From: Alphaproteobacteria bacterium
GTDB taxonomy: Bacteria > Pseudomonadota > Alphaproteobacteria > Rickettsiales > UBA8987
DNA: 64,000 nt
NCBI GenBank assembly: GCA_030429625.1
Contig: JAUIFA010000004.1
Coordinates: 205,568-269,567, forward strand
Reading direction: 5' to 3'
The notes under the pieces are model-generated. The model searched no databases, had not been told where the DNA came from, and saw nothing but the letters and a program-made list of their open reading frames with translations. A program made the position numbers and the translations under genes. Position 1 is the stretch's first letter. Every line of letters begins with the position of its first letter. Positions 6,059 through 36,460 of this stretch are shown here, one piece after another.

Positions 6059-6074
6059 TTAATAAAAAGTTAAC
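6059..6074. promoter_or_regulatory. CtrA-box-like motif TTAA-N7-TTAAC
   Basis: TTAATAAAAAGTTAAC is an exact match to the alphaproteobacterial CtrA consensus architecture. It lies 92 nt upstream of the ftsY ATG. Confidence 0.3.
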
Positions 6075-8674: not shown

Positions 8675-8690
8675 TTAAATTATAGTTAAA
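8675..8690. promoter_or_regulatory. CtrA-box-like motif TTAA-N7-TTAA(A)
   Basis: TTAAATTATAGTTAAA lies immediately upstream of the predicted -35 element of the virB8 operon promoter. Confidence 0.2.
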
Positions 8691-10399: not shown

Positions 10400-10403
10400 T
10401 GGA

Positions 10404-21940: not shown

Positions 21941-22618
21941 ATGGAACCAAACAATATAAAAATTGCCCCCTCGATCTTGTCTGCGGATTTTGCCAAGTTA
22001 GGTGAAGAAATTGCCGCGATCACAAAGGATGGAGCAGATTATGTTCACATTGATGTAATGGATGGGCACTTTGTTCCAAATCTGACGATTGGGCCTTGCG
22101 TGATCCAATCACTAAGAAAACATTCCAGCCTTCCTTTTGACGTGCATTTGATGATCAGTAATCCAGAACTGTACATTGAGGATTATGCTAAAGCGGGTGC
22201 GGACATTATTACCGTTCATGCTGAGGCGGTCACCCACCTTGATCGAGTGATTCATGCCATCAAGGATGCCGGATGTAAAGCGGGTGTATCGCTGGTGCCG
22301 TCGACCGCGCCGGACGTGTTGGATTATGTTATTGATCAACTGGATTTGGTATTGGTGATGAGTGTGAATCCTGGCTTTGGTGGGCAGTCTTTCATCGGGA
22401 AATCGGTTGAGAAGATTCGTGAGCTACGTTACATGATTGACGAAACGGAAAAAGATATTGACCTTGAAGTTGACGGTGGCGTGGTGGTGGACAATGTGGA
22501 ATATATCATCGAAGCTGGGGCCAATGTCTTGGTTGCTGGTTCTGCTGTTTTTAAGGATGGTCCTTCGGGCTATGCGGCAAACATCAAAGCGCTTCGAACA
22601 GGTAAGCCTTTGGCCTAA
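21941..22618 (+). CDS. rpe: Ribulose-phosphate 3-epimerase
   Basis: 225 aa. [40 protein letters not shown] and EVDGG motifs. Confidence 0.95.
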
Positions 22619-23403
22619 TTTGTTTTGAAGCCGTGTTTTTTCAATACGCTCTTTGCTTCGTCGGTTTTTAGAAATTCAAGAAATTTTTCGGCTTTTTTCA
22701 TGTTGTTATTTCCGGCTACCAATGCTGCATGATATTGTATTTTATCGTGAAGGGATGGGTCTATGTTCGACAATATCTTTATGTTTTTATTGCTGATCGC
22801 ATCGCTGTAATAGACAATGCCTGCGCCTTCTCCGATGTCAATCAGATGCAAATTTGTCCGGGCGTTGGCCACCCGTACGGCATAAGGCTCGAATTGCCCC
22901 CATTGGTTAATATTTTCGAGCATTTGTTTGGTGACATAGCCGATCCATGTTGTTTCTGGTTCAACAATATATAACAAGGTACGGTTTGTTAATTTATCCA
23001 GTGCCTTTTTAATGTCGATGGGCTTGCTTGCCATATCACTCAGGCGGTTATTCTTCGAGGTTACAAGCACCAGACGGTTTTCGGCAACGTCCACAATATT
23101 GTACACGTTTAATGTTCCCGCACGTTTGAGGCTTGTAAGCGTTTGGGGATGTTCCCCGATATAAACATCGGCCACATCTCCGGCCTGAATATTGTATTCC
23201 AACTCGGTTGGGGAGTCAAAAATGGCGATGATGCTGATTTCTTTTCTTTGTGAATAGATGTTAATAAGTTCACTCAGGGCATTGGTCAAACTGGAAGAGG
23301 CCATGATGGTAATGGAGGCAGGGGCTTCTTGAACAACACCCCGCTTGGCCACCGCATTGCTGCTGATAAATAGTATGAATAAGGTGATAAAAATACGCAG
23401 CAT
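22615..23403 (-). CDS. ModA-like periplasmic molybdate/tungstate-family substrate-binding protein (orphan; no modBC adjacent)
   Basis: 262 aa with a signal peptide. [34 protein letters not shown] and [11 protein letters not shown] align along the length of E. coli ModA (ITVFAAASLTNAMQDI, ADLFISAD, LGIVYGSDA, YPVAIVEGHNN). Confidence 0.72.
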
Positions 23404-23405
23404 AC

Positions 23406-23786
23406 TTATTTATACAACTCTTCAGGAGGCGTTACAACATTTTGATTTATACCCCATTGTTTCTTTTTTGCGGTAAAAAAGAAACAACTATGTCTTCCCG
23501 TATGGCAGGCCACACCTTTTTGGCGTACTAAAGCAAGAAGGCTGTCACCATCGCAATCAAGCCGTATTTCCACCAGTTCTTGGGTTTGGTTGGAGCTTTC
23601 ACCTTTGCGCCAAAGTGATTTACGGGAACGTGAATAATAATACATTTGTCCGGTTTCAAGAGTCTTTTTAAAGGCTTCCTCGTTCATCCAAGCCAGCATA
23701 AGCACCTCATTATTGTCTGCATTCTGGGCAATAACCGGAATAAGGCCATCTTCGTTAAAGGTAATTTTTTCTATCAAATTGTCCAT
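23406..23786 (-). CDS. hisI: Phosphoribosyl-AMP cyclohydrolase (monofunctional HisI)
   Basis: 126 aa. GLIPVIAQNADNNEVLMLAWMNEEA, YYSRSRKSLWRKGESS, DCDGDSLL and ACHTGRHSCF motifs. Confidence 0.9.
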   Translation of the reverse strand: MDNLIEKITFNEDGLIPVIAQNADNNEVLMLAWMNEEAFKKTLETGQMYYYSRSRKSLWRKGESSNQTQELVEIRLDCDGDSLLALVRQKGVACHTGRHSCFFFTAKKKQWGINQNVVTPPEELYK

Positions 23787-23800
23787 ATTTAACCGTCATG

Positions 23801-24460
23801 CTATAAAAGAGATCGTGACAACCATACTACTCTGCCTAGAATTTGTACAGAATCAGTATTGGCATTGTAGGGTTCATATTTTTTATTGTCTGAGATGATT
23901 CGCAACATAGGAGGTTTGGAATTGCCAATATATTCCAATCTCTTTATGGTGATACCCACCCCGTCAAAAATAGCAAAAAGCCCTGCCGGATTTGCGGATT
24001 TCTTTGAGATGTCAATCAACACCTGATCATCTTCATCAAGCGTTGGGGACATTGTATCACCTAGCACTTTAACCAGTCTTAGATCGGCCGGATCGGTTTT
24101 TAATTGGTTTTTTATCCAAGAAAGTTGAAAGAAATTAGGAATTCCTTCCATGGTTTCAATGTTGATATGACTACCATTTGAGCGGGCAATTAAATGGGGG
24201 ATGGTGATCATGTCGTCTGGGATGGCGGGATTCTTTACATGTTCATCAGAGCTGCCATACATCAGGTATAGCGGGGAGACACCAAGGATATGGGCAATGG
24301 CAGTTAATTTTTCAATGGTAGGATTTCTGGATTTTCCACTTAAGATGTCATAGACAAAAGACTGGCCAACATTAGCCCGTTCTGCAAGCTCATGGGCATT
24401 TATATTGCTGTCCGCCATGGCATCTTTTAACCGCTGAATTATAGATTCTTCTTCTCTCAC
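23801..24460 (-). CDS. XRE-family HTH plus S24 (LexA/CI-like) peptidase-domain transcriptional regulator
   Basis: 219 aa. N-terminal HTH (INAHELAERANVGQSFVYDILSGKSRNPTIEKLTAIAHILGV). The C-terminal S24 fold has GDTMSPTL (normally G-x-S-M) and ITIKRL (the catalytic Lys position). Confidence 0.85.
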   Translation of the reverse strand: MREEESIIQRLKDAMADSNINAHELAERANVGQSFVYDILSGKSRNPTIEKLTAIAHILGVSPLYLMYGSSDEHVKNPAIPDDMITIPHLIARSNGSHINIETMEGIPNFFQLSWIKNQLKTDPADLRLVKVLGDTMSPTLDEDDQVLIDISKKSANPAGLFAIFDGVGITIKRLEYIGNSKPPMLRIISDNKKYEPYNANTDSVQILGRVVWLSRSLL

Positions 24461-24525
24461 AAATAAACTGCCGTCTATGTTACTTCCTACTATCGGTTAT
24501 CGTTATTTACACGCATATAAAGTCA

Positions 24526-24554
24526 ATTGCAATATATGCTTAAATTGTTATAAT
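24526..24554 (+). promoter_or_regulatory. Candidate sigma70-type promoter for the chpT-like gene
   Basis: TTGCAA (24526-24531), a 17-nt spacer, then TATAAT (24549-24554), 40 nt upstream of the ATG at 24594. The inverted repeat GCATATA-N13-TATATGC (24512-24538) overlaps the -35. Confidence 0.35.
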
Positions 24555-24593
24555 CACAGATTCTTTAGAGGAAGCATTAGGGGATTTATAATT

Positions 24594-25232
24594 ATGGGCA
24601 GCATTTCTACCGAAAGCAGTAAGCTAACAGAGCTTTTAAGCACACGTTTTTGTCATGATTTGGCCGGTGCAATTAGTGCGGTGAACAATGGGGTTGAACT
24701 CTTGTTGGGCGACGACGTGGACGATCAGATGCAAAAACAGGTGATGGATCTATTGTCCCTAAGCTCACACGAGGCATTGGCCAAATTGCAAATGTATCGT
24801 ATGGCGTATGGTCGTGCAGAACAGGGGATCAGTGCGGATGTTTCGGAAGTTATAGACATCGCCAGCACCTTTTTTGCCAAAGGGAAGGTGGTGTTGGATT
24901 GGTCAAAAGAGGATTTGGGCGGTTTTGAAACCAAAATAGATATTTCCCTGCGGCGGATAGTTACCCTTATGATTGTGATTCTTTCCAGCCTCACGATTTT
25001 TGGTGGGCGTATCTCTGTATCTCGCAGTAACAATACAATAAAGGTTGTGGCTTCCAACGAAAGACTAAAAGATCTGGAAGAGCTTAATGAAATTGTTTCG
25101 GGCAAGGATACTGTTGAGATGACGGTAGATAATGTTGTTATCTTTTACCTTGTTACGGTGGTAAAAGAGAGGGGTTTCAACTTGTCTTATGGGCAGGGCG
25201 GGGACAGTAAATATTTGGAGTTGAGCGTTTAA
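24594..25232 (+). CDS. chpT: ChpT-family histidine phosphotransferase
   Basis: The ATG at 24594 follows AGGGGA; the longer track ORF at 24477 would start upstream of the predicted promoter. LLSTRFCHDLAGAISAVNNGVELL...LSLSSHEALAKLQMYRMAYG parallels Caulobacter ChpT (LAARLCHDFISPASAIVSGLDLL...LQFTRVAFG). Confidence 0.75.
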   Translation: MGSISTESSKLTELLSTRFCHDLAGAISAVNNGVELLLGDDVDDQMQKQVMDLLSLSSHEALAKLQMYRMAYGRAEQGISADVSEVIDIASTFFAKGKVVLDWSKEDLGGFETKIDISLRRIVTLMIVILSSLTIFGGRISVSRSNNTIKVVASNERLKDLEELNEIVSGKDTVEMTVDNVVIFYLVTVVKERGFNLSYGQGGDSKYLELSV

Positions 25233-25346
25233 TTTTTTAGACGGTTGGAAGATAAAATATCTAGAAAAAGATGGTAAACCGCGTTATGGTGTTGTATGAT
25301 ACACGTTGGGGTAGAAGAAAGCTAAGAATCTTTTTTGGTGGGCGTA

Positions 25347-28181
25347 ATGGATGATTTAATAAGCGAATTTTTAGTTGAGACAAACGAGAGTCTTGAGGCA
25401 TTGGACCTTGATTTTGTTGAGCTTGAACAAGACCCCGGCAATACAGCAATTATAGGTAATATCTTTCGGGTAATGCATACCATCAAGGGTACGTGTGGGT
25501 TTTTGGGTTTGTCACGTTTGGAGAAAGTGGCGCATGCGGCTGAAAATGTGATGGACAAGTTACGGGATCAGGTTTTTGAAGCGGATGCAGACGTCATCTC
25601 GCTGATTTTGGAGGCCAATGATCGGATCAAGGCGTTGATTGAGGTGCTTGAAGAAACGGAAGCTGAGCCGGAAGGGTCAGACCAAGAGCTTATCGACAAA
25701 CTTAACAGTTGCGCAGAGAATAATGGTGTGGTTGCTGGAGGGGGCAGTGCGCCGATTGAGAATGGTCTTTCAGAGAAGAAAGATCAGCCAGCTGCAGGAA
25801 CATCTGATTTGGATGAAGAAATAGACTTTACCCCTGTTGTGGCGGACTATGCTGCGGATGAAAATGAGCCTGAGGCTACAGGAACATCTGATTTGGATGA
25901 AGAAATAGACTTTACTCCCGTTGTGGCGGACTATGCTACTCCTGGTGGCGAGGTAGAAGAAACGCAGAGCGTAAAAATTTCAGAAGAAGCAAAAAAAGAA
26001 GCAGTTTCAACCGGGTTGGATGTTGCGAGCAAGGAAGATGGTGCGGATAAAAAGAAAGCGACGGTTAACCAGTCTATACGGGTCAATCTTGATATTTTGG
26101 AAGATTTGATGCAGATGGTTGGTGAGCTTGTATTAACCCGAAATCAGCTCTTGCAGCTAATGCGTAACAACACCGACGGGAATAACAGTGGCGATCTGGC
26201 CACACCGTTGCAAAGGCTCAATCACATTACTACCGAACTGCAGGAAGGGGTGATGAAAACCCGAATGCAGCCTATTGGCAATGCGTGGGCAAAATTTCCC
26301 CGGCTGGTTAGAGACCTTGCCCATGACCTTGGCAAAAAGATAGAGCTTAAAATGATCGGCGCTGATACGGATCTTGATCGCCAGATGCTTGAAGCAATAA
26401 AAGACCCTTTGACCCACATGGTGCGCAACTCGGCTGACCATGGGATTGAGTCGGTAGAAAATCGCATTGCTGCGGGTAAGCCAGAAACCGGAACAGTCAC
26501 GCTAAGTGCGTATCATGAAGGCGGGCACATCATTATTAAAATTGCTGATGACGGTAAGGGTCTGGACATTGAGAGGATAAAAGCCAAGGCAGTAGAAAAT
26601 AACCTTGTGACGCCGGAAGAACTTGAAACCTTAAGTGAAAAACAAATTTATCAGTTTGTTTTCAAGCCAGGATTTTCCACAGCAGCAGAAGTTACGGCAG
26701 TCTCTGGTCGTGGGGTTGGCATGGACGTAGTGGTCAGTAATATTGAGAAAACTGGCGGGCATGTAGAGATTAATTCGTGGCCGGGAAGAGGGTCAGAGTT
26801 TTTAATTCGGTTGCCGTTAACGCTGGCCATTATGCCGGTTCTGATTGTACAAAGTGGCGAGGAAATTTTTGCTATTCCGCAGATACGTGTGTCAGAAATA
26901 GTACGTATTGATAAAGACGATCAGGAAGACGGAAACGATATTGAAATCATAAACAACTCACCTGTTTTAAGGTTGCGGGGGAGGCTGTTGCCGCTGATAT
27001 CGCTTTCTAGGACGCTTAATATTTCACGGCAGAAACTTCACGATAACGACAATGAAGATGTGGATAGGAAAAAAGAAGAGGCCATAGAACCATTTATTGT
27101 TGTGTGCGAGGTTGGATCTCAGAGTTTTGGTATTATGGTGGATAAGGTGTTCCACACAGAGGAAATTGTGGTCAAGCCAAATTCAAGCCTTATAAAAGAT
27201 TTGGAGGTTTATTCAGGCTGTACCATTCTGGGGGATGGAACGGTGATTATGATCCTTGACCCTAGTGGTATCATACGCACAGGAGGCATTGCAGGGATTT
27301 CAGAAGATCAGCAGAGTGATAAAGACAGCAGCATTCAGGATGGATCCATGGAAAGCTTCTTGGTATTTAATGCCTGGAATAAAACGCCAAGAGCCATTCC
27401 TTTGGAACTTGTTTCCCGCCTTGAAGAGATTGATGCGGCTAAAATTGAATGGTCGGGTGGAAGTCGGGTGATACAATATCGTGGGGGGCTGATGCGTCTT
27501 ATCATTATGGACGACGCTGTCGATTTTCCGGAAGAGGGCATAGTTGAAGTCATTGTCTTCACCGACGGTGATAGAGCTATGGGTATTGTGGTTGAAGAGA
27601 TTGTCGACATTGAGCGCCATTCTATGGACATAAAATCCGTGAGCAGTCACGAGGGGATTTTGGGGAGCTTAATCATAAATGAAGTGGCTACCGACCTTAT
27701 TGATGTCAGTCATTATTTTGCCAAGGTGTTTACCGGATGGCTTTCACACAAAGATGCCAGTGATAGCTTCGGCAAAGAAGAGACAGACATTGCTGCAAGA
27801 ATATTACTGCTTGATGACAGCACGTTTTTTAGAAAATTTATGGAGCCAGTTTTGGTGGTGGCCGGGTATGACGTTGTTTCTGTGGGCGCTGGCCAGCAGG
27901 CTTTGGACATCCTCAATGATGCGGACGAACATTTTGATTTAATCATTACCGACATTGATATGCCGGAGATGAATGGTATTGAATTTGCTGCCAAATGTCG
28001 GGAAATTCATAAGCTGAGTCATACGCCAATTATTGCCCTTAGCTCGCACGAACAAGAAGATTTAGGGGACGATATCAGTAGCTTGGGCTTTACTAGCTTT
28101 GTAACAAAATCGGACAGGGATAAGCTGGTGGCAGTTGTCTCAGAAATATTGGCAAAACACACCAGTGATGAGGCAGCATAA
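25347..28181 (+). CDS. cheA: Chemotaxis histidine kinase CheA with a C-terminal receiver domain (CheA-REC hybrid), no recognisable P2 domain
   Basis: ATG at 25347 (MDDLISEF). P1/Hpt FRVMHTIKGTCGFLG, P3 QSIRVNLDILEDLM, P4 N/G boxes (HMVRNSADHGIE, DDGKGLD, GRGVGMDVV), a P5 CheW-like region, then REC (ILLLDDS...LIITDIDMPEMNG). Confidence 0.95.
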   Translation: MDDLISEFLVETNESLEALDLDFVELEQDPGNTAIIGNIFRVMHTIKGTCGFLGLSRLEKVAHAAENVMDKLRDQVFEADADVISLILEANDRIKALIEVLEETEAEPEGSDQELIDKLNSCAENNGVVAGGGSAPIENGLSEKKDQPAAGTSDLDEEIDFTPVVADYAADENEPEATGTSDLDEEIDFTPVVADYATPGGEVEETQSVKISEEAKKEAVSTGLDVASKEDGADKKKATVNQSIRVNLDILEDLMQMVGELVLTRNQLLQLMRNNTDGNNSGDLATPLQRLNHITTELQEGVMKTRMQPIGNAWAKFPRLVRDLAHDLGKKIELKMIGADTDLDRQMLEAIKDPLTHMVRNSADHGIESVENRIAAGKPETGTVTLSAYHEGGHIIIKIADDGKGLDIERIKAKAVENNLVTPEELETLSEKQIYQFVFKPGFSTAAEVTAVSGRGVGMDVVVSNIEKTGGHVEINSWPGRGSEFLIRLPLTLAIMPVLIVQSGEEIFAIPQIRVSEIVRIDKDDQEDGNDIEIINNSPVLRLRGRLLPLISLSRTLNISRQKLHDNDNEDVDRKKEEAIEPFIVVCEVGSQSFGIMVDKVFHTEEIVVKPNSSLIKDLEVYSGCTILGDGTVIMILDPSGIIRTGGIAGISEDQQSDKDSSIQDGSMESFLVFNAWNKTPRAIPLELVSRLEEIDAAKIEWSGGSRVIQYRGGLMRLIIMDDAVDFPEEGIVEVIVFTDGDRAMGIVVEEIVDIERHSMDIKSVSSHEGILGSLIINEVATDLIDVSHYFAKVFTGWLSHKDASDSFGKEETDIAARILLLDDSTFFRKFMEPVLVVAGYDVVSVGAGQQALDILNDADEHFDLIITDIDMPEMNGIEFAAKCREIHKLSHTPIIALSSHEQEDLGDDISSLGFTSFVTKSDRDKLVAVVSEILAKHTSDEAA
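25795..25937 (+). repeat. In-frame direct duplication inside the cheA P1-P3 linker (two 59-bp copies, 84-bp period)
   Basis: 25795-25853 and 25879-25937 are 57/59 identical, and both differences are synonymous. Each copy encodes GTSDLDEEIDFTPVVADYA. Confidence 0.9.
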
Positions 28182-28657
28182 TGACAAATACACAACTTGT
28201 TTCGTCTAAAAATAATGAGTTATTATCGGTTAACTCTAAAACAAAACAATTTGTTACCATGATGGTTGGGGATCAGCTTTTTGGGATTCCGGTTTTGATG
28301 GTAGAAGATGTGTTGCGTCCTCAGAAAATAACCAAAATACCATTGGCCTCTGATACAATTTTAGGGGCAATTAATTTGCGTGGACGCATTGTGACAGTAA
28401 TAAATATGCGCCGCCGGTTGGGAATAGAGGACCATGAGAACAGTTATAACTGTATGCATGTTGTGGTGGAACATAAAGATGAGCAATATAGTTTTATCGT
28501 GGATAAGATTGGTGATGTTCTAAAACTTTCACTGGATGATTTTGAAAAGAACCCCGCTAATTTATCAAGCAATTGGCAAGATGTTTCGTTGGGTGTTTAT
28601 CGGCTTGACGGCAAGATACTGGTGGTTTTGGATGTTGAAAGCTTATTAAATTTGTGA
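28181..28657 (+). CDS. cheW: Chemotaxis coupling protein CheW
   Basis: 158 aa. FVTMMVGDQLFGIPVLMVEDVL...INLRGRIVTVINMRRRLG. The start overlaps the cheA stop (TAATG). Confidence 0.93.
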   Translation: MTNTQLVSSKNNELLSVNSKTKQFVTMMVGDQLFGIPVLMVEDVLRPQKITKIPLASDTILGAINLRGRIVTVINMRRRLGIEDHENSYNCMHVVVEHKDEQYSFIVDKIGDVLKLSLDDFEKNPANLSSNWQDVSLGVYRLDGKILVVLDVESLLNL

Positions 28658-28726
28658 TATGACTAGAAATCACTTTATGTCATTAAGGTGGGGTGTTTGT
28701 TTATGAAGGAAGGGAAGGGATTTTAG

Positions 28727-29095
28727 ATGCCTTTATCGATGGTTGTTGACGACTCAAAGGTTGTAAGGACGGTTTCTAGGCGTATTTTAGAAGATTTAGG
28801 TTACGATGTGGTTGAGGCTGAAGACGGACAGGATGCTTTGAATAAAGCAAAAGAAGGCGTGCCGGAGCTGATATTGTTGGACTGGAACATGCCGGTAATG
28901 AATGGGCTTGAGTTTCTTCTTGCGTTCCGCCAATTTAAAGAACACGCAAGCACCAAAGTCATTTTTTGTACAACAGAAAACGATATTACAAAGATTCAAG
29001 AGGCCATTGCGTCGGGGGCAGATGAGTATGTTATGAAGCCTTTTGACTCTGAAATTATAAAAGGGAAATTACAGCAGTTGGGGATGATAGATTAA
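28727..29095 (+). CDS. cheY: Chemotaxis response regulator CheY
   Basis: 122 aa single REC domain. VVDDS, LLDWNMPVMNG and YVMKPF. Confidence 0.92.
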   Translation: MPLSMVVDDSKVVRTVSRRILEDLGYDVVEAEDGQDALNKAKEGVPELILLDWNMPVMNGLEFLLAFRQFKEHASTKVIFCTTENDITKIQEAIASGADEYVMKPFDSEIIKGKLQQLGMID

Positions 29096-29156
29096 CCTTT
29101 TATCGTGCCGGTTTTTGTGGTAGTTTTCTTTTTATTTTTATCTTCAGGAGGATATC

Positions 29157-30272
29157 TTGCTGTCCAACATAGTGGGACAAATAAACGTAATGATTGTGGA
29201 CGATTCCGCAGTTATACGCGGTTTGTTATCCGGCATTCTTAAAGAAGAAAAAAACATAAATATTGTTTATACGGCATCAAACGGTGACATGGCCGTGAGC
29301 TATCTGAAAAAACATCCTGAAAATATAGATGTGGTGACTCTTGATATACAAATGCCAGAAAAAGATGGACTTTCCGCATTGCCAGAATTATTGGAGGCTT
29401 CGCCGGACATCAAAGTGATTATGGTTTCAACTTTGTCGCATGAAGGGGCAAAAGAAACTGTGCAGGCACTCGCAAAAGGTGCGGCTGACTATATTGCGAA
29501 GCCTGCTAATCATCGGCAGGAAAATGCAATAAATATTTTTGCAGGTGAGCTTATCGAAAAGATAAATGCGTTAGGTAAGGCACAATTAAAAAACAGAAAT
29601 GTGACCCAAGCGGTCACAGCAAACAACAAGGATTCTGGTGGAACACCACAGATAACCCTTCGTCCACTCCCCTTGGTGATGAACAAGCCAGAGGCATTGG
29701 TGATAGGCTCTTCCACTGGAGGGCCACAAGCCCTTCTGGAAGTGTTTAAGCATTTTTCAGGCAGAGAAATACAAGTACCCATTTTTATTACCCAACACAT
29801 GCCTGCGGAATTTACCGGGCTTTTAGCCAAACAAATAAATGCTTCTTCAGGAGTAGTTACCAAGGAGGGTGAAAACGGAGAAAAGGTGCAGGCCGGTGTG
29901 GCATATATTGCTCCAGGAGATTTTCATATGCTGGTGGAAGAAAAAGAAGGCGCCAAATACATCAAGCTGGACAAAGGGCAGGCAGAAAATTATTGTCGTC
30001 CGGCTGTTGACCCTATGCTCAGAAGTATCGTTTCGGCTTACGGGGGAAAGAAAACATTGATGATGATGTTAACCGGTATGGGATCGGACGGATTGGCCAG
30101 TGCTAAGATACTTGTCGATGAGGGGGGTGTTGTCATTGCGCAAGACAAGCAGACCAGTGTGGTTTGGGGCATGCCTGGGGCGGTTGCCATGGCGGGGCTT
30201 TGTGCTCATGTCTTGCCATTGCACAACATAGCTGATAAATTTATTGAGCTATCAAAGGGGCAGATAAGATGA
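29157..30272 (+). CDS. cheB: Protein-glutamate methylesterase/glutaminase CheB
   Basis: 371 aa. TTG start 5 nt after AGGAGG. REC (VMIVDDSAVIRG, TLDIQMPEKDG) plus an esterase domain (IGSSTGGPQAL, ITQHMPAEFT, GMGSDG). Confidence 0.93.
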   Translation: MLSNIVGQINVMIVDDSAVIRGLLSGILKEEKNINIVYTASNGDMAVSYLKKHPENIDVVTLDIQMPEKDGLSALPELLEASPDIKVIMVSTLSHEGAKETVQALAKGAADYIAKPANHRQENAINIFAGELIEKINALGKAQLKNRNVTQAVTANNKDSGGTPQITLRPLPLVMNKPEALVIGSSTGGPQALLEVFKHFSGREIQVPIFITQHMPAEFTGLLAKQINASSGVVTKEGENGEKVQAGVAYIAPGDFHMLVEEKEGAKYIKLDKGQAENYCRPAVDPMLRSIVSAYGGKKTLMMMLTGMGSDGLASAKILVDEGGVVIAQDKQTSVVWGMPGAVAMAGLCAHVLPLHNIADKFIELSKGQIR

Positions 30273-31096
30273 CTTTGGGAACTCAGGATTTTGCGTATTT
30301 AAGCGATTTGATTAGGAAGAAGTCGGGTATCAGCCTATCAGAAGATAAAATGTACCTTATTGAATCCCGCTTGTTGCCTTTGGCCAGAAGCCATAGCCTA
30401 CATAACATCACTGAATTGGTCAATAAAGTTAGGGGTGGCGATGCTGGGCTGGTGGTAGAACTGATCGAAGCAATGACCACCAATGAAACCTCATTTTTCC
30501 GTGACATGAAGCCGTTTCAGCTTTTTGATAATGATGTTATGCCGCACATTAAAGCGCATAATATTGATAACAATGTGCGGATTTGGTGTGCGGCGTGTTC
30601 CACCGGTCAGGAACCGTATTCTCTGGCGATGAATATCAACGAAAAAAAGATAGCATATCCCGGACTTTCTTTTGATATTCAGGCAACCGATATTGACAAG
30701 AAGGTTTTACAGAAAGCATCCGAGGGAATCTACAGCCAGTTTGAGATTCAGCGCGGGCTTCCCATCACCTTATTGATGAAGTATTTCACCCAAATGCAAA
30801 GTTACGGTGAAAAATGGGAGATGAAAGAAGATCTTAGGAAGATGGTGACGTTTAAATATCTAAATTTGCTTGAGAGTTATGCATCTATGGGCAAGTTTGA
30901 TGTAATATTCTGTCGTAATGTTTTGATTTATTTTGAGCCGGAAACCAAGTCGGACATTTTAAACCGTTTGGCAGACTGCCTAAAGCCGCATGGGGTTCTA
31001 TTTCTCGGCAGTGCTGAAACCATTAATGATCTGACCGACAAACTCACGACCTTTAAAGATATCCGCTCTATTCACTGTCTAAAACAGCCAAAATAA
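30269..31096 (+). CDS. cheR: Chemotaxis protein methyltransferase CheR
   Basis: 275 aa. TNETSFFRD, IWCAACSTGQEPYSLAM and IFCRNVLIYF. It overlaps the cheB stop by 4 nt. Confidence 0.93.
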   Translation: MTLGTQDFAYLSDLIRKKSGISLSEDKMYLIESRLLPLARSHSLHNITELVNKVRGGDAGLVVELIEAMTTNETSFFRDMKPFQLFDNDVMPHIKAHNIDNNVRIWCAACSTGQEPYSLAMNINEKKIAYPGLSFDIQATDIDKKVLQKASEGIYSQFEIQRGLPITLLMKYFTQMQSYGEKWEMKEDLRKMVTFKYLNLLESYASMGKFDVIFCRNVLIYFEPETKSDILNRLADCLKPHGVLFLGSAETINDLTDKLTTFKDIRSIHCLKQPK

Positions 31097-31102
31097 ACAA
31101 TC

Positions 31103-32401
31103 TTACAACAAAGGTGACCAGGCAGGGTCACTGGCTTCACCAGGGGTTTTTATTTTCCGCTCATTATATCCGGTCAAGTCAATGCTGTACAAATAGGTTT
31201 TGCCCTGCTGAGTTTTTGACCCTCGGGATTGGCGGGTAAACATAATGACTCGACCGTTGGGTGACCATGTTGGCCCTTCGTCGAGATAGCTTTCGGTCAA
31301 CAGTCTTTCACCAGAACCGTCTGGGCGCATCACTCCAATATAGAACTTGCCGTTATACATTCGTGTGAAGGCAATTAAGTCTCCACGAGGGGACCATACC
31401 GGAGTGGCATAACTTCCTTTGCCCAAACTGATACGTTTTACGTTGTTGCCGTCTTTGTCCATCACATAGATTTGTTGTGAACCGCCTCGGTCAGAATTGA
31501 ACGTAATTCTTTTACCGTCTGGACTGTAAGAGGGAGACGTGTCAATGGAAGAACCCCAGCTTATCTGCTTATGTGCTCCGCTGTTCAAATCAAGGCTATA
31601 GATTTTACTTTTTCCGTCCATAGCTGCAGAAAGAATGGCACTTCTCCCATCGGGAGAAAAGCGAGGTGAGAAGGTCATGTTTTTAAACGAGCCAAGGAGT
31701 TTTTCTTTGCCGGTCTGTAAATCGTATAAATAAACACGCGGCCTATTGTTGTAATAGGCCATGTAGATAATGCGTTGAGATTTTTTGTCAAAACGTGGGG
31801 TAAGCTCCAGATATTTCCCGTTGGTAAGGAACTGATGATTGGCTCCGTCCTGATCCATAATGGCCAAACGCTTGGTGCGTTTTTTCCAATTGCCGCTTTC
31901 AGCAATATAGATGATTCTTGAATCAAAATAGGGATCTTCCCCCGTCAAACGGGAATAGATTTCATCGGCTACTTTATGGGCAAGACGTCGCCAGTTATTG
32001 TGGATAAAATATTTATAGATGATCTTTTTGCTGGAAAAAACATCGTACAGACTGAAAGTAATTTTAATTTTGCCGCCAGACATATTTTCCACGTCGGCGG
32101 TGATTATGGCTTGCGTGTCAATTTTACGCCAGTCGGCAAAATGTGGCTCGGTGGTGCCGTTGTTTATTTTCTGGATAAATGCTTTGGGGTCTACCGCGTT
32201 GAAAAGCCCAGAGCTTTGCAGGTCGTTTTTTATAACGCCAGCAATGTCTTGGGCGAAGGAATTATTGCCACCAAAATGGGTAATGGCAATGGGTAGAGGA
32301 GATACGCTCCCTTTGGTAATGTCTATTTTTAGTATTTCAGCATGCGCATGGCTTGGAATGAACGTAATGAGCAATAATAATATAGTATATAGATGTTTCA
32401 T
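31103..32401 (-). CDS. tolB: Tol-Pal system beta-propeller protein TolB
   Basis: 432 aa with a signal peptide. Repeated PxFSPDG / PxWSPxG propeller motifs (PRFSPDGRS, PSYSPDGKR, PVWSPRGD, PTWSPNGR, PAWSP). Confidence 0.93.
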   Translation of the reverse strand: MKHLYTILLLLITFIPSHAHAEILKIDITKGSVSPLPIAITHFGGNNSFAQDIAGVIKNDLQSSGLFNAVDPKAFIQKINNGTTEPHFADWRKIDTQAIITADVENMSGGKIKITFSLYDVFSSKKIIYKYFIHNNWRRLAHKVADEIYSRLTGEDPYFDSRIIYIAESGNWKKRTKRLAIMDQDGANHQFLTNGKYLELTPRFDKKSQRIIYMAYYNNRPRVYLYDLQTGKEKLLGSFKNMTFSPRFSPDGRSAILSAAMDGKSKIYSLDLNSGAHKQISWGSSIDTSPSYSPDGKRITFNSDRGGSQQIYVMDKDGNNVKRISLGKGSYATPVWSPRGDLIAFTRMYNGKFYIGVMRPDGSGERLLTESYLDEGPTWSPNGRVIMFTRQSRGSKTQQGKTYLYSIDLTGYNERKIKTPGEASDPAWSPLL

Positions 32402-32433
32402 TCAGCTCTTCTCCTTCTTATGCGCGCATTATA

Positions 32434-33450
32434 CTAATACATGTCACGTGGGTCAAAATTAAATTCCATTTCTTTCCAGCTGTCATAACGATCCTGTGGC
32501 AGGTTCTGTAAAGGGCTGCATCGTAATACGGCACGTACTGCATTGTCTGCCGCCGCTTTGAATACCGGATCACTGTTATAGCGGCTTTTGTCGGTGACGT
32601 TCACTGATCCGGCTACCGACCCGCTCTTGTTAAGTTTAAAGCGCACAGAAACAGCGATTTTGGCTGCCTCTCTTGCGCCGGGAAGAATGCGCCAACACGC
32701 CACAAGTTGGTTGCGGATGGCATCAATCTGACTTAAGGAAAGCGGTTTAGCAGCATCGTAGTTGCTGCTAACCTGCTTTGTTTTTTCCGGCTTGGCCAAT
32801 TTGTCTAACTCCGCGGCCATTTGGGTAAATGATTTTTTCACCTCTTTCACCTTTGGTTTTGTCGGAGGTTTCTTTGCCGCTACCTTAGGCGCAGGTTTGG
32901 GTTTTTCTGGAGCTTTAGGCTTTGCTTTTGGCGGTTTTGGCTTTTCTGCCAATTTCTTGGGCTTAAACGGTTTAGGAGGGGGTGTTGGTCGGGTTGCTAT
33001 TTTCTTTACCGGGCTTTTGGGAGCTGCCGCAGGTTTGTTGGCTTGAGGTTTCTTGCCTTCCACCGGTTTGACGTTGGTTTTCTCCTTAATAGGCAGTAAT
33101 TCTAAAGTGATGGTTCTGGGTGGGGTCATTTTAGGAGGGTCTTGAGCAAACGGAATGGCACCTATGATGCAGATTAGGATAAACAAATGTAGCATCCCTG
33201 AGCGAAAAGGCCCAGGATATGTATTGGCCAGTTTTTGCACATATAGCCACAGGTGGTTAAGAATAGGTTTGGTGATTTTCCACATCAGGCGCAAAATCAT
33301 CATCACCGTAGGAGCAATTAGCGCCCAGAGATCTTCAATGACGTACCAGCACGACCAGGCAATGTTTTTTAGATGTGAAATAAGCCCGATTTGTTCGTCG
33401 TGCGTCCCGATATTATCATAGTCCAGACGTTTTTGCGCCCTGTCGTCCAT
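32434..33450 (-). CDS. tolA: TolA-like cell-envelope integrity protein with an unusually long N-terminal extension
   Basis: 338 aa. Central Lys/Pro/Ala-rich spacer (KPKPPKAKPKAPEKPKPAPK) and a C-terminal TolA/TonB-C-like domain (IRNQLVACW...VSVRFKLNKSGSV). Positioned between tolR and tolB. The start overlaps the tolR stop (TAATG). Confidence 0.7.
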   Translation of the reverse strand: MDDRAQKRLDYDNIGTHDEQIGLISHLKNIAWSCWYVIEDLWALIAPTVMMILRLMWKITKPILNHLWLYVQKLANTYPGPFRSGMLHLFILICIIGAIPFAQDPPKMTPPRTITLELLPIKEKTNVKPVEGKKPQANKPAAAPKSPVKKIATRPTPPPKPFKPKKLAEKPKPPKAKPKAPEKPKPAPKVAAKKPPTKPKVKEVKKSFTQMAAELDKLAKPEKTKQVSSNYDAAKPLSLSQIDAIRNQLVACWRILPGAREAAKIAVSVRFKLNKSGSVAGSVNVTDKSRYNSDPVFKAAADNAVRAVLRCSPLQNLPQDRYDSWKEMEFNFDPRDMY

Positions 33451-33911
33451 TATTTAGGCTGCTCCGTTATCAACGCAACTTTTAAAAAACCTGCCAGATT
33501 GATTGCGTTCATTACTTCCATCATCCGGCCATAATCAACATGTTTGTCCCCGCGGATAAAAATACGCATGTCGGTGTTGCGGTTGCTGATGGCCATGAGT
33601 TTCGGTTTGATTTCATCCAGGTCAATTTTGGTTTTGGAGATAAAAATATAACCATTGCTGTCGATTGAAATTTCCAGCGGCTCTTCTTTGGCAGGCAAAG
33701 GCTGGGCATCGGATTCTGGCAAATCTACCACAATGCCCGGCGTTAGTAATGGTGCGGTGACCATAAAGATAATCAGCAAAACCAGCATGACATCCACAAA
33801 AGGGGTAACGTTGATTTCGTTCATCAGGGCAGAGTTACGTGAGCGCTTACGACGACGGCCGGCTTTGCTACCAAGGCGATTGCCAACCCCATTATGCAAT
33901 TGTAAAGCCAT
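33450..33911 (-). CDS. tolR: Biopolymer transport protein TolR (ExbD family)
   Basis: 153 aa. INVTPFVDVMLVLLIIFMVTAP, then a periplasmic domain (IFIRGDKHVDYGRMMEVMNAI). Confidence 0.88.
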   Translation of the reverse strand: MALQLHNGVGNRLGSKAGRRRKRSRNSALMNEINVTPFVDVMLVLLIIFMVTAPLLTPGIVVDLPESDAQPLPAKEEPLEISIDSNGYIFISKTKIDLDEIKPKLMAISNRNTDMRIFIRGDKHVDYGRMMEVMNAINLAGFLKVALITEQPK

Positions 33912-33920
33912 AATTCTTCC

Positions 33921-34733
33921 TTAATATTTGTCAAGTTCTCGGGCAATGACAGAGGCAAATTCATCAGAGAATTCATCAATTCTGTCTGAAATGCCCCCGC
34001 ACTGAGTAGAAAACTTGTTGTAAAAAATCACAGCAGGAATAGCAGCAAAAAGCCCGATGGCCGTAGCAAACAAAGCTTCGGCGATGCCGGGAGCTACGAC
34101 GGCCAGTGTTGAGTTTTGCGAATGAGCGATGGCCTGAAAACTGTTCATAATTCCCCAGACTGTACCAAAAAGGCCAATAAACGGGGCGGAAGAACCTACG
34201 GTTGCCAGAAAGCTTAAGCCTTTTTCCAGCGCGGCGATTTCACGATTTCTTACACTGTCCATCGCGTGCCAGACACGATCCTTGATTTCACCACGCCGTG
34301 CATAATCACCTTCTTTTGGCAGTGAAGGCAGCAGATCCAAACTCTTTTGTTTGCCACTTTCGGCAGCATTTTCTCCTTTAAGCCTCATCCATTCATGCAT
34401 TCCAGCGATAAATACCCGTGCAATGGGATTGTCCGCCGTTGCTTTGATGGTTTCATAATAATGTTCCAGCGATTGACATGCCCAGATGTTTTTCTCAAAC
34501 TTCTTCATTCTTTTCTGTAATATTCTTAATGTATTAAACTTGTCAAAAAAGATGGCCCAACACCAGAAAGAGGCACATAAAAGAAGCACGATCACCAGTT
34601 GGACAATAATATCCGCATTAACAAACATAGAATAAATACTCAGATCGTGGGCGGGAGCGCCGCCCGTACCCGCGACAGTAGGTATGTTCATGGATTGGCC
34701 TTCAATGGATGTGATTGGTACAGCTTTTGGCAT
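33921..34733 (-). CDS. tolQ: Tol-Pal system protein TolQ (MotA/TolQ/ExbB family)
   Basis: 270 aa. The C-terminal channel motif LATVGSSAPFIGLFGTVWGIMNSF...VAPGIAEALFATAIGLFAAIPAVIFYN is characteristic. An alternative ATG at about 34691 would remove 14 aa. Confidence 0.9.
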   Translation of the reverse strand: MPKAVPITSIEGQSMNIPTVAGTGGAPAHDLSIYSMFVNADIIVQLVIVLLLCASFWCWAIFFDKFNTLRILQKRMKKFEKNIWACQSLEHYYETIKATADNPIARVFIAGMHEWMRLKGENAAESGKQKSLDLLPSLPKEGDYARRGEIKDRVWHAMDSVRNREIAALEKGLSFLATVGSSAPFIGLFGTVWGIMNSFQAIAHSQNSTLAVVAPGIAEALFATAIGLFAAIPAVIFYNKFSTQCGGISDRIDEFSDEFASVIARELDKY

Positions 34734-34943
34734 TCTAGTCTTCCCTTACAATGATCGGTAAAATAAACCTTGAACATCATAGTATAATTTTGACCCTCCA
34801 TCAAGAGAACTTCATAGGAATTTAGCGGTTTTTTTGCTTTGTCACAAAATATTCATATTTCAAATTGTCACTGTATAACAATATGTTAACTGGCATGTCG
34901 TCCAAATAGATAAAATTTTATTAATTTTTTCCATAAAAACACT

Positions 34944-34958
34944 TTAATATTTAGTTAA
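34944..34958. promoter_or_regulatory. CtrA-box-like motif TTAA-N7-TTAA
   Basis: TTAATATTTAGTTAA in the AT-rich tolQ/carA intergenic region. It could be a chance match in AT-rich DNA. Confidence 0.15.
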
Positions 34959-35048
34959 TATGTGTTATATTACGTGTATAGATGTTAACAATTTGATTAC
35001 CCTTGGGAGAGAGTAATAAAAATAACAACTATGATTTAAGAGAGAGAT

Positions 35049-35156
35049 ATCAAGATCACCCCCCCTAATTGATCTTGTATGAGAACACAACATTTCCCCT
35101 AATGCTTGATGTTCTCTTTTATTTATGGCGCTACGCAATGTAGCGCCATTTTTCTT
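35049..35156 (+). ncRNA. Candidate small RNA (or cis leader): two stem-loops with C-rich loops plus an intrinsic terminator
   Basis: Hairpin 1 is 35051-35058/35070-35077 with loop CCCCCCCTAAT. Hairpin 2 is 35081-35087/35110-35116 with a loop containing TTTCCCCTAATGCTT. The terminator is at 35127-35156. No plausible ORF is present. The 5' end is unknown. Confidence 0.3.
35127..35156 (+). terminator. Rho-independent terminator
   Basis: GGCGCTAC, loop GCAAT, GTAGCGCC (8-bp GC-rich stem), followed by ATTTTTCTTT. On the opposite strand the trailing sequence is A-rich, so the element is oriented to the + strand. Confidence 0.55.
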
Positions 35157-35215
35157 TGGGCTGGCTATGGGGGGTTAAAGAGTGTTTTTTTCTGTAAGAT
35201 TCTGCCGATTTATTA

Positions 35216-35244
35216 TTGACAATAACGTGAATCACGCCTAGTTT
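35216..35244 (+). promoter_or_regulatory. Candidate sigma70-type promoter for carAB
   Basis: TTGACA (35216-35221), a 17-nt spacer, then TAGTTT (35239-35244), 26 nt upstream of the carA ATG. Confidence 0.35.
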
Positions 35245-35269
35245 CGCCAAAATTCACTAAGAGAGAAAG

Positions 35270-36460
35270 ATGAACACTGCACAAGAACATATATCTCCTG
35301 CAGACACGAATGCTGCGCTTGTTTTGGCCGATGGCAAAATATTTTGGGGGTATGGAGTTGGTGCAGAGGGCAAAACGATTGGTGAATTGTGTTTTAACAC
35401 CTCCATTACCGGATATCAGGAAATTCTTACCGATCCTTCTTATGCAGGGCAAATCATTACTTTTACCTTCCCACATATTGGCAATGTGGGGGTGAACGAT
35501 CAGGACATAGAAAAAGATAAGATAGCTGCGTGTGGCCTTATTGTACGTGAGGCAATTACCTCACCGGCAAATTACCGTGCTCAATCTCATTTGAACGATT
35601 GGCTGGTTCAAAAGAAAGTGACGGGAATTTGTGGTATTGATACACGTGCGTTGACCCGACACATACGCCTAAATGGGGCACAGAATGGTTATATTATCTA
35701 CTGTCAGAATGCGGAGATAGATATTTCTGCTGCGATGGAAGAGCTTAAAGATTATCCGTCCTTAAAAGGTATGGAGCTGGCGGGGAAGGTGACATGCAAA
35801 GAACCACATCAGTGGGATGAAAAATTGTGGGAAATAACCACTGGCTATCAAAAGCAGGATAAACCGAAATATCATATTGTGGCGGTGGATTTTGGGGTGA
35901 AATATAATATTCTGCGCCATCTGGCAGAGCGGGAGTGTAAGATTACCGTGGTGCCGGCAAGAACCAGTGCAGAAGAAATCTTTGCGCTTAATCCGGATGG
36001 GATTTTTCTTTCCAATGGGCCTGGGGATCCGGCAGCCACGGGAAAATATGCCTTGCCGATGATTAAAGAAGTGGTGAAGTCCGGTATACCGGTCTTCGGT
36101 ATTTGTTTGGGGCATCAGATGTTGGCTTTGTCACAAGGCTGTGGCACAGAAAAAATGCACCAAGGCCATCGCGGTGCCAATCATCCCGTACAAGATTTGG
36201 ATACGAAGAAGGTGGAAATTACCAGCCAGAATCATGGCTTTGTGGTGAGCGAAAACAATCTGCCAGAAAATGTTAAGGTCACCCATAAATCATTGTTCGA
36301 CGGCACGGTACAGGGCATTGCGCTGACCAACGCCCCGGCCTTTTCGGTGCAGGGACACCCCGAAGCTTCGCCCGGCCCGCATGACAGCGCCTATTTGTTT
36401 GACCAATTTATTGCCGCCATCGCAGACCATAAACAACGGGAAGAAAAGCAACATGCCTAA
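35270..36460 (+). CDS. carA: Carbamoyl-phosphate synthase small (glutaminase) subunit
   Basis: 396 aa. [17 protein letters not shown], and a GATase triad region GICLGHQ...HRGANHP...VQGHPE. Confidence 0.96.

What the first reader, a model, noticed from the sequence alone, without database searches (positions are those of the whole stretch)
35049..35156. Candidate small RNA whose loop is a perfect 13-nt complement of the chpT ribosome-binding site
The + strand of the 536-bp AT-rich tolQ/carA intergenic region carries three elements in order. Hairpin 1 is CAAGATCA (35051-35058) / TGATCTTG (35070-35077) with the loop CCCCCCCTAAT. Hairpin 2 is GAGAACA (35081-35087) / TGTTCTC (35110-35116) with a loop containing TTTCCCCTAATGCTT. 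A canonical intrinsic terminator follows (GGCGCTAC/GTAGCGCC plus ATTTTTCTTT, 35127-35156). Only very short ORFs of 18 codons or fewer, with no plausible coding signal, precede the terminator. A good carA promoter (TTGACA-17-TAGTTT, 35216-35244) lies downstream of it, so the terminator seems to end a separate short transcript. A weak possible promoter for that transcript is TTGATT (34993) -18- TAAAAA. Both loops share CCCCTAAT. Loop 2 (TCCCCTAATGCTT, 35095-35107) is the exact reverse complement of AAGCATTAGGGGA at 24572-24584. That sequence is the Shine-Dalgarno region, ending 9 nt before the chpT-like ATG. Loop 1 matches 8/8 (ATTAGGGG). Both loci are on the + strand, so the two RNAs would pair antiparallel. 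By my rough estimate, some 13-mer match between a ~110-nt element and this window has a chance expectation of about 0.2. Only about 1 percent of the window is RBS, so landing on an SD is unlikely by chance. My hypothesis is an anti-SD sRNA controlling translation of the ChpT phosphotransferase, and possibly the che operon behind it. The alternative is a cis-acting carAB leader, since the G6 run at 35169-35174 could pair with the C runs.
Basis: partly seen in the sequence, partly recalled or inferred. Interest (0 to 1): 0.7.

Follow-up and report, generated by a model that had tools for sequence, protein, structure and literature searches.

The report
Conserved small RNA with C-rich loops
The tolQ/carA spacer of this uncultured alphaproteobacterium very probably encodes a real, previously undescribed small regulatory RNA of a familiar type (cytosine-rich hairpin loops that block G-rich ribosome-binding sites), and its best predicted target in the window is the chpT gene, though that pairing remains unproven.

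Summary
The only retrievable relative (TolQ 65% identical) has the same element next to tolQ. There the downstream gene is a convergent rpe, not carA, so the carAB-leader alternative fails. Between the two species the stems differ by 9 double-sided compensatory changes and no pair is broken. Two C-run loops (C4-8 followed by U(U)A(A)U) and the terminator are kept, and no ORF is conserved. An ~85-nt upstream block is about 88% identical and holds an invariant TTAA-N7-TTAA (CtrA-type) box overlapping an extended -10 promoter. This is a non-coding sRNA gene with no Rfam match.

The chpT link is plausible but unproven. It is the best of 56 translation-initiation regions after accessibility correction, by a small margin. 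A 13-mer inside such a region arose in 9 of 2000 shuffles. Only 6 of the 13 nt lie in the predicted apical loop. The relative's chpT 5' region could not be retrieved, so covariation is untested.

It is a new family of a known kind (C-rich-loop anti-SD sRNAs). Caulobacter CcnA is the closest functional analogue.

The parts
34944..34958 (+). TTAA-N7-TTAA box (CtrA-type consensus) overlapping the -35 position of the candidate sRNA promoter
   Evidence: One search finds it. It is invariant in the relative (L082 8580-8594; alignment). Three of the four such boxes in the window are intergenic, against 0.59 expected (P = 0.019). Binding by CtrA is an inference.
34963..34971 (+). Extended -10 element TGtTATATT of the candidate promoter. 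The inferred transcription start is near 34978.
   Evidence: The promoter scan reports TTAATA-16-TATATT with TG. The relative has TGcTATAAA at the aligned position. That site fails the scanner's last-base rule, so the start site is uncertain.
34978..35048 (+). 5' domain. Its first 36 nt, GATGTTAAcAATTtGaTTACcCTTGGGAGAGAGT, are almost invariant and include a small hairpin CUU-GGGA-GAG (35002-35011). This may be transcribed RNA or part of the promoter/operator.
   Evidence: The alignment shows the conservation. All 5 tip-hairpin pairs are kept but invariant, so they say nothing about structure. CTTGGGAGAGAG is unique in the window.
35051..35077 (+). Hairpin 1: 8-bp stem, loop CCCCCCCUAAU, fully accessible
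   Evidence: Compared with hairpin A of the relative there are 4 double-sided compensatory changes and none broken. The opening energy of the loop is 0.0 kcal/mol.
35081..35116 (+). Hairpin 2: 7-bp basal stem, weak upper stem, apical loop UCCCCU. It contains the 13-mer 35095-35107 that is complementary to the chpT SD.
   Evidence: It is orthologous to hairpin B of the relative: the stem core AGAAC/GTTCT is shared and the 2 flanking pairs are compensated.
35117..35124 (+). U/A-rich single-stranded spacer before the terminator, a possible Hfq-type site
   Evidence: Read from the sequence. The relative has UCUUUUGCUUG at this position. Hfq binding is an inference.
35125..35157 (+). Intrinsic terminator: 10-11-bp GC-rich stem, then UUUUUCUUU
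   Evidence: The equivalent in the relative is found by the same scan. There are 3 compensatory pairs and 1 G-U change.
24572..24584 (+). Predicted target site AAGCAUUAGGGGA, covering the Shine-Dalgarno sequence of the ChpT-family gene (ATG at 24594)
   Evidence: The public gene call starts at this ATG (P0121, 212 aa).

Best explanation
The element is an independently transcribed, non-coding, trans-acting small RNA of about 130-180 nt.

**Transcription.** It most likely starts near 34978 from a conserved promoter that carries a CtrA-type box. It ends at the intrinsic terminator near 35156.

**Working parts.** These are two hairpins whose loops expose runs of cytosines followed by U(U)A(A)U.

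**Mechanism.** The loops pair with G-rich Shine-Dalgarno sequences (AUUAGGGG-like), block ribosome binding and so repress translation. This is how other C-rich-loop sRNAs work.

**Target.** In this organism the strongest predicted site is the Shine-Dalgarno of the ChpT-family gene that heads the che cluster. Pairing would start at the UCCCCU apical loop of hairpin 2 and spread into its weak upper stem, reaching 11-13 bp.

**Shown here:** the structure, its conservation and covariation, the terminator, the lack of coding potential, and the complementarity with its rarity.

**Inferred:** the transcript and its 5' end, repression of chpT, CtrA control, and use of Hfq.
For: - **Fold.** z = -7.3 for the window element and z = -5.7 for the relative's version.
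- **Conserved beside tolQ despite a different downstream gene.** The relative has TolQ 65% identical and a convergent rpe downstream.
- **Covariation.** There are 9 double-sided compensatory changes across the three stems and none is disrupted. The terminator was also counted on the alignment: 3 of 10 pairs are compensated, and slid controls give 0.
- **C-run loops are rare.** Hairpins with a C-run loop and a stem of at least 7 bp number 36 in 1.67 Mb of alphaproteobacterial loci. Tandem pairs with C5+ loops are found only in the relative's element; in the window only hairpin 1 passes, because hairpin 2 has just four Cs.
- **No conserved ORF**.
- **No Rfam family** matches, even at E up to 10.
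- **Unidirectional terminator** in both species.
- **Promoter.** The CtrA-type box and extended -10 lie in a block about 88% identical between species.
- **chpT site.** It is an exact 13-mer. It is the second-best non-self duplex for loop 2 over both strands of the window. It is the best of 56 initiation regions after accessibility correction. A match like it inside an initiation region arises in 9/2000 shuffles.
- **Precedent.** CcnA, 6C and the cuckoo RNAs use C-rich loops against G-rich ribosome-binding sites (PMC8959179, PMC6486639, PMC4615179).
Against: - There are no expression data, so the 5' end is uncertain. The -10 in the relative ends in A and is not flagged by the scanner.
- Only one independent relative exists, so covariation rests on two lineages.
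- The margin of chpT over the next initiation regions is small: -7.4 against -6.2 and -6.15 kcal/mol.
- Seven of the 13 nt are paired within the sRNA, and the chpT leader partly sequesters the site (opening cost 6.7 kcal/mol).
- The GCUU extension of the match is absent from the relative's orthologous loop.
- In the relative, the best initiation region on its contig is tolQ, not a che gene.
- More distant relatives with the same carA|tolQ arrangement have short spacers and no such element.
- ctrA is not in the window, so CtrA control cannot be anchored.
Confidence: 0.5

Rival explanations
1. The sRNA is real, but the 13-nt chpT match is fortuitous or secondary. Its true regulon would be other GGGG-type Shine-Dalgarno sites across the genome, or sites recognised by the highly conserved 5' region rather than the loops.
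For: - Eight of 56 initiation regions carry GGGG.
- An M23 peptidase gene (7092) and a ParA/MipZ-like gene (54190) score nearly as well as chpT.
- In the relative, tolQ is the best site.
- The 5' block is conserved far better than the loop flanks.
- Only 64 kb of the genome could be scanned.
Against: - A 13-mer inside an initiation region is rare by chance, 9/2000.
- chpT still ranks first.
- No convincing partner for the 5' block was found in the window.
Confidence: 0.3
2. It is not an RNA gene. The conserved block would be a DNA-level promoter/operator for tolQ, and the hairpins would be structural DNA repeats or an orphan terminator.
For: - The conserved block lies upstream of tolQ in both species.
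- A weak - strand promoter-like site can be read inside the block from the sequence: TTGTTA-16-TATAAC.
- There are no expression data.
Against: - The T-run follows the GC hairpin only on the + strand in both species.
- Stems are kept by compensatory changes while their sequences diverge, which indicates selection on RNA structure.
- The candidate - strand -10 elements end in C in both species.
- The block lies 200-280 bp from the tolQ start, and the sequence between them is poorly conserved.
Confidence: 0.1
3. It is a cis-acting leader or attenuator of carAB, with the C-runs pairing to the downstream G6 run.
For: - A G6 run sits 13 nt after the U-tract.
- In the relative, 12 nt after the terminator are perfectly complementary to hairpin B.
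Against: - In the relative the element is followed by a convergent rpe and there is no carA.
- A good carA promoter lies downstream of the terminator.
- Relatives that keep carA|tolQ lack the element.
Confidence: 0.03
4. It is a protein-titrating RNA. The conserved GGGA-capped hairpin and GAGAG repeats would bind an RNA-binding protein, and the C-loops would be incidental.
For: - The tip hairpin CUU-GGGA-GAG is invariant.
- The window also has a second GAGAGAG run at 35040-47.
Against: - There is only one GGGA hairpin, whereas sponge RNAs usually carry many sites.
- The second GAGAG run is not conserved in the relative.
- Two C-run loops are the conserved repeated feature.
Confidence: 0.05

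Closest known systems
CcnA of Caulobacter crescentus (PMC8959179)
   Same: - Alphaproteobacterial sRNA of about 180 nt (CcnA is 182 nt).
- A CtrA box in the promoter.
- A hairpin loop with CCCC that binds GGGG next to the start codon in 5' UTRs of cell-cycle regulators (ctrA, gcrA).
- It acts on the ribosome-binding site.
- It feeds back on the CtrA pathway.
   Different: - No detectable sequence or structure homology.
- CcnA lies in the replication origin, whereas this element lies beside tolQ.
- CcnA activates ctrA by freeing its ribosome-binding site, whereas simple occlusion of chpT is predicted here.
- This element has two C-run loops with a UAAU tail.
- Its CtrA dependence is only inferred.
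6C sRNA of Actinobacteria (Rfam 6C; PMC6486639)
   Same: - Two hairpin loops with runs of cytosines.
- The loops bind single-stranded G-rich ribosome-binding sites such as AGGGGGG.
- It has many targets.
   Different: - It belongs to a different phylum with high-GC genomes.
- No Rfam match at E up to 10.
- 6C acts without a chaperone, whereas this element has a typical U-rich, Hfq-type 3' end.
Cuckoo / CcsR (RSs0680, C14) family of Alphaproteobacteria (PMC4615179)
   Same: - A modular series of 2-4 adjacent hairpins with the same C-rich loop motif.
- The stems vary freely through compensatory changes.
- The number of hairpins differs between species.
   Different: - The defining loop motif CCUCCUCCC is absent. 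The loops here are C7UAAU and UCCCCUAAU.
- The genomic context is different.
RsaE/RoxS and other C-rich-motif sRNAs of Firmicutes
   Same: Unpaired CCCC motifs that occlude Shine-Dalgarno sequences. This rests on established knowledge and is discussed in PMC4615179.
   Different: They are phylogenetically unrelated. The weak Rfam similarity to RsaOG (22.8 bits against a gathering score of 50) comes from the terminator only.

Membership tests
Cuckoo (CcsR/RSs0680/C14) RNA family | Each hairpin loop carries CCUCCUCCC | tested here: not met
   The loops read CCCCCCCUAAU and UUUCCCCUAAUGCUU. In the relative they read UCCCCCCCCUUAU and GUCCCCCCUUAAU.
Cuckoo (CcsR/RSs0680/C14) RNA family | 2-4 adjacent hairpins with variable stems | tested here: met
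   There are 2 hairpins in the window and 3 in the relative, with stems compensated.
6C RNA (Rfam) | Match to the family covariance model | tested here: not met
   There is no hit at the gathering threshold or at E up to 10.
6C RNA (Rfam) | Two loops, each with a run of about six cytosines | tested here: inconclusive
   Loop 1 has C7, but loop 2 has only C4. The relative has C8 and C6.
CcnA | Sequence homology to Caulobacter ccnA and a location in the replication origin | not tested
The cumulative GC skew shows no origin-like turn near 35 kb.
CcnA | CtrA box in the promoter | tested here: met
   TTAA-N7-TTAA at 34944-58 spans about -34 to -20 relative to the inferred start, and it is invariant in the relative. 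Only the motif was tested, not binding.
CcnA | Loop CCCC pairing with GGGG next to a start codon of a CtrA-pathway gene | tested here: met
   UCCCCU pairs with AGGGGA, which ends 9 nt upstream of the chpT-family ATG. This is in silico only.
Intrinsically terminated trans-acting sRNA (generic class) | Own promoter, no conserved ORF, Rho-independent terminator, intergenic position, conserved structure | tested here: met
   The promoter and transcript themselves are not testable with these tools.
ChpT (the target gene's family) | Match to ChpT models | tested here: inconclusive
   Pfam HPTransfase gives E = 4.6e-11. The NCBIfam ChpT equivalogs match over the full length at E = 2.6e-23, but at 82.5 bits against a cutoff of 240. 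The PDB ChpT chains 4qpj and 4fmt are hit.

The most novel reading that the evidence does not exclude
The sRNA is switched on by phosphorylated CtrA through the conserved TTAA-N7-TTAA box. It then blocks translation of ChpT, the phosphotransferase that passes phosphate to CtrA. That would make an RNA-based negative feedback loop on the CckA-ChpT-CtrA phosphorelay. The same loop would gate the chemotaxis operon behind chpT, and perhaps cell-envelope and division genes with GGGG ribosome-binding sites (an M23 peptidase, a MipZ/ParA-like ATPase, and tolQ in the relative).
Probability: 0.2. Interest if true: 0.75.

Novelty: new member of a known kind. Interest (0 to 1): 0.45.

Why it matters
Regulatory RNAs are almost unknown in uncultured, deep-branching alphaproteobacteria. 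This candidate is well supported by comparison, and its anatomy (C-run loops on freely evolving stems) shows again that this anti-ribosome-binding-site design has arisen repeatedly. If the chpT pairing and CtrA control are real, this would be the second known sRNA wired into the CtrA cell-cycle circuit, after CcnA. It would be the first to act at the phosphotransfer step, and it would link cell-cycle signalling to chemotaxis gene expression. The prediction can be tested directly with a two-plasmid reporter assay, without growing the organism.

Tried and rejected
1. **Rfam.** Searches at the gathering threshold and at E up to 10 found only sub-threshold, terminator-driven similarities (RsaOG, RyhB).
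2. **GTDB species genomes via TolQ.** The best hit is 51% identical, so there is no close relative.
3. **The relative's chpT leader.**
   - The ChpT protein search returned only the query itself and a 34% hit from another organism.
   - The CheA N-terminus search returned only more distant organisms.
   - An exact-DNA scan for the end of contig L083 returned 0 hits.
   - The loop/SD covariation test therefore could not be done.
4. **Metagenome scan with TTACNCTTGGGAGAGAGT.** It gave 30 hits, about the number expected by chance. L094 and L097 show some extra similarity but lie in unrelated contexts, so I treated them as chance.
5. **Five more TolQ relatives at 55-59% identity.** Their tolQ upstream spacers are short (about 110-235 bp) and lack the element.
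6. **Whole-length duplex folding against the window.** It was uninformative, giving huge internal loops. I replaced it with loop-only and accessibility-corrected scans.
7. **Covariance model.** I did not build one. MAFFT could not put the hairpins of the two species in register. I ran a hairpin-descriptor scan instead.
Its -10 is not conserved.
10. **Small-protein gene.** Rejected, because no ORF is conserved on either strand.

Full report
**1. Observation**

Every coordinate in the finding is correct.
- Hairpin 1 is CAAGATCA (35051-58) / TGATCTTG (35070-77) with the loop CCCCCCCTAAT.
- Hairpin 2 is GAGAACA (35081-87) / TGTTCTC (35110-16).
- The GC-rich hairpin followed by TTTTTCTTT at 35125-57 is the only terminator-like site the scan finds in 34500-35500.
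- The 121-nt stretch folds at -40.8 kcal/mol, against a shuffle mean of -19.7 (z = -7.3).
- TCCCCTAATGCTT (35095-107) is the exact reverse complement of 24572-84. That site ends 9 nt before ATG 24594.
- The flanking genes are tolQ (33921-34733, - strand) and carA (35270-36460, + strand).
- The ORF at 24594 is a ChpT-family protein. Pfam HPTransfase matches. The NCBIfam ChpT equivalogs match over the full length at E = 2.6e-23 but below their cutoff. PDB ChpT chains are hit.
- That ORF is followed by cheA, cheW, cheY, cheB and cheR.

Two details need correcting.
- In the predicted structure only UCCCCU is in the apical loop of hairpin 2. The rest of the 13-mer lies in a weak upper stem.
- With TTG starts allowed there are ORFs of 21-37 codons on the + strand. 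None is conserved.

**2. Chance**

I made 2000 dinucleotide-preserving shuffles of the 76-nt two-hairpin region.
- It fell wholly inside a translation-initiation region in only 9 shuffles (0.45%). I defined that region as -25 to +5 around each of 56 crudely predicted starts, which is 1.4% of the sequence.

The match is therefore nominally unlikely, with the caveat that it was noticed after the fact.

**3. What it is: comparative evidence**

The genome is an orphan. The best TolQ among GTDB species representatives is 51% identical. In the 5.8-billion-protein collection the only closer relative is a JGI metagenome organism at 65% (P0002). L081 is the same organism as the window.

The relative's contigs (L082-L084) have a 535-bp spacer upstream of tolQ. 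The gene on the other side is rpe, which converges on the element. It is not carA. The spacer aligns with the window and shows these features.
- An ~85-nt block corresponding to window 34928-35013 is about 88% identical, while the rest of the spacer has diverged.
- The block is followed by hairpins whose stems have different sequences but stay perfectly paired.
- Two loops carry C-runs followed by U(U)A(A)U: UCCCCCCCCUUAU and GUCCCCCCUUAAU.
- A GC-rich terminator with a TTTTCTTTT tail follows.

I matched the hairpins by position and by the shared stem core AGAAC/GTTCT.
- Hairpin 1 against hairpin A: 4 double-sided compensatory changes.
- Hairpin 2 against hairpin B: 2.
- The terminators: 3, plus one C-G to U-G change.
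- No pair is broken.

The terminator count was confirmed on the MAFFT alignment, where slid controls gave none. The relative has a third hairpin without a C-run, so the number of modules varies.

No ORF is conserved on either strand. No Rfam family matches, even at E up to 10.

In 1.67 Mb of alphaproteobacterial loci plus the window, only 36 hairpins have a C-run loop and a stem of at least 7 bp. Tandem pairs were found only in the relative's element. In the window only hairpin 1 passed, because hairpin 2 has just four Cs.

I conclude that this is a structured, non-coding transcription unit that travels with tolQ. This removes the carAB-leader alternative.

More distant relatives (TolQ 55-59%) have short tolQ spacers without the element. 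Two of them keep the carA|tolQ arrangement. The family therefore looks young or fast-evolving.

**4. Promoter**

The conserved block contains TTAATA-16-TGtTATATT at 34944-34971, flagged by the scan. The relative has TGcTATAAA there, which fails the scanner's last-base rule. The start near 34978 is therefore an inference, and the RNA length of about 180 nt is uncertain.

The -35 region is a perfect TTAA-N7-TTAA, the consensus CtrA box by established knowledge, and it is invariant in the relative.
- The window has four such boxes, against 2.9 expected.
- Three are intergenic, against 0.59 expected (P = 0.019). They lie upstream of ftsY, upstream of a virB8-like type IV secretion cluster, and here.

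ctrA itself is not in the window. CtrA control is a hypothesis.

**5. Target**

*Loop-only duplex scan over both strands.* The chpT Shine-Dalgarno site scores -23.1 kcal/mol. That is the second-best non-self site for loop 2, and the background is -6.4 +/- 3.0. The best site (-23.5) lies at 24031-60 on the + strand, antisense to a lexA/CI-like ORF.

*Helix scan with opening energies for both RNAs over 56 initiation regions.*
- chpT ranks first at -7.4 kcal/mol: hybrid -18.6, sRNA opening 4.5, mRNA opening 6.7.
- An M23 peptidase gene (7092) scores -6.2 with loop 1.
- A ParA/MipZ-like gene (54190) scores -6.15 (annotations).

Eight of the 56 initiation regions contain GGGG. The loops are thus generic readers of GGGG-type Shine-Dalgarno sequences, and chpT has the longest match.

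In the relative, the best of 14 initiation regions on the contig is tolQ itself (UAAGGGG, -6.4).

The relative's chpT leader lies just beyond the contig ends. It could not be recovered by three routes. The GCUU part of the 13-mer has no counterpart in the relative's orthologous loop.

**6. Mechanism**

The most likely mechanism is a trans-acting sRNA whose exposed C-runs nucleate on AGGGG-type Shine-Dalgarno sequences and occlude the ribosome-binding site. chpT, and possibly the che genes behind it, is the prime candidate target in this organism. The U-rich stretch before the terminator and the U-tail fit an Hfq-type 3' end. That last point is an inference.

| Claim | Confidence |
|---|---|
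| It is a genuine sRNA gene | about 0.8 |
| It works by C-loop/Shine-Dalgarno pairing that includes chpT | about 0.5 |
| It is CtrA-dependent | about 0.35 |

**7. Comparison with known systems**

C-rich-loop anti-SD sRNAs are a well-known class.
- **Cuckoo/CcsR family** (PMC4615179). It shares the modular hairpins with variable stems. Its defining CCUCCUCCC loop motif is absent here, so this element is not a member.
- **6C** (PMC6486639). It has two C-rich loops that bind AGGGGGG-type sites. It is actinobacterial, and its model does not match.
- **Caulobacter CcnA** (PMC8959179). This is the closest functional analogue: 182 nt, a CtrA box in the promoter, and a loop CCCC that binds GGGG next to the start codons of ctrA and gcrA. 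I did not test homology. The locus differs, since CcnA lies in the replication origin.

The element is therefore a new family of a known kind.

**8. Verdict**

The sRNA reading is well supported, the carA-leader reading is rejected, and the chpT target is plausible but unproven. Interest is moderate. The mechanism is ordinary. A CtrA-sRNA-ChpT feedback loop that also gates chemotaxis would be a notable addition to alphaproteobacterial cell-cycle control, and it can be tested with simple reporters.

Noticed in passing
L120 9245-9262 (tolQ|carA spacer of a relative with TolQ 57% identical): The 172-bp spacer contains CAATTAGGGGGGTATT on the carA-sense strand. That reads CCCCCCTAATTG on the tolQ-sense strand, which is 12 nt identical to the window's loop 1 plus the start of its 3' arm. 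It is in the opposite orientation and has no sRNA-type hairpins or terminator. It could be a remnant, a target-like site or convergence.
   Followed up: partly
L082 about 8341-8352 (- strand); window 35169-35174: In the relative, the 12 nt right after the terminator U-tract (GGGGACAGTTCT) are a perfect complement of hairpin B's 5' arm plus its C-run. In the window a G6 run sits 13 nt after the U-tract. A read-through form might mask a C-loop.
   Followed up: partly
window 24034-24049 (+): This is the best non-self duplex site for loop 2. It reads CATCAAGCGTTGGGGA, against CATCAAGCATTAGGGGA for the reverse complement of the sRNA. It lies antisense inside the lexA/CI-like repressor ORF (23801-24460, - strand), only 540 nt upstream of the chpT Shine-Dalgarno on the same strand.
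   Followed up: partly
window 6059-6073 and 8675-8689: Perfect TTAA-N7-TTAA(C) boxes lie in the spacers upstream of ftsY (6166) and of a virB8/virB9/virB10-like type IV secretion cluster (8838-11687). With the sRNA box, three of the four boxes are intergenic (P = 0.019).
   Followed up: partly
window 21941-35156 compared with L082: In the relative, rpe abuts the sRNA's 3' end. In the window, rpe (21941-22618) lies at the far side of the chpT-che-tol block. This fits an inversion of the whole chpT...tolQ-sRNA segment, which has stayed together.
   Followed up: no
L085 774-958 (- strand): The leader of a TonB-dependent receptor gene in a relative with TolQ 57% identical carries CCCCCTTAG twice. 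One copy is in the loop of a 7-bp hairpin, and the other is where the Shine-Dalgarno would be expected.
   Followed up: no
L094 1160-1230; L097 3840-3910: Two metagenome hits to TTACNCTTGGGAGAGAGT show extra similarity to the sRNA region. L094 has AAGATTAGTTT, then a C6 run, then TGGGGGGTTAA. L097 has CAATTTG, then a terminator with a TTTTTCTTTTG tail. Both sit in unrelated gene contexts, so they are probably chance.
   Followed up: partly
window 24477 versus 24594: The chpT-family ORF has an upstream in-frame ATG at 24477 (251 aa; called that way in a Logan assembly, P0243). The NCBI call uses 24594 (212 aa). ChpT models align from residue 6 of the short form, which favours 24594 and hence the targeted Shine-Dalgarno.
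   Followed up: partly
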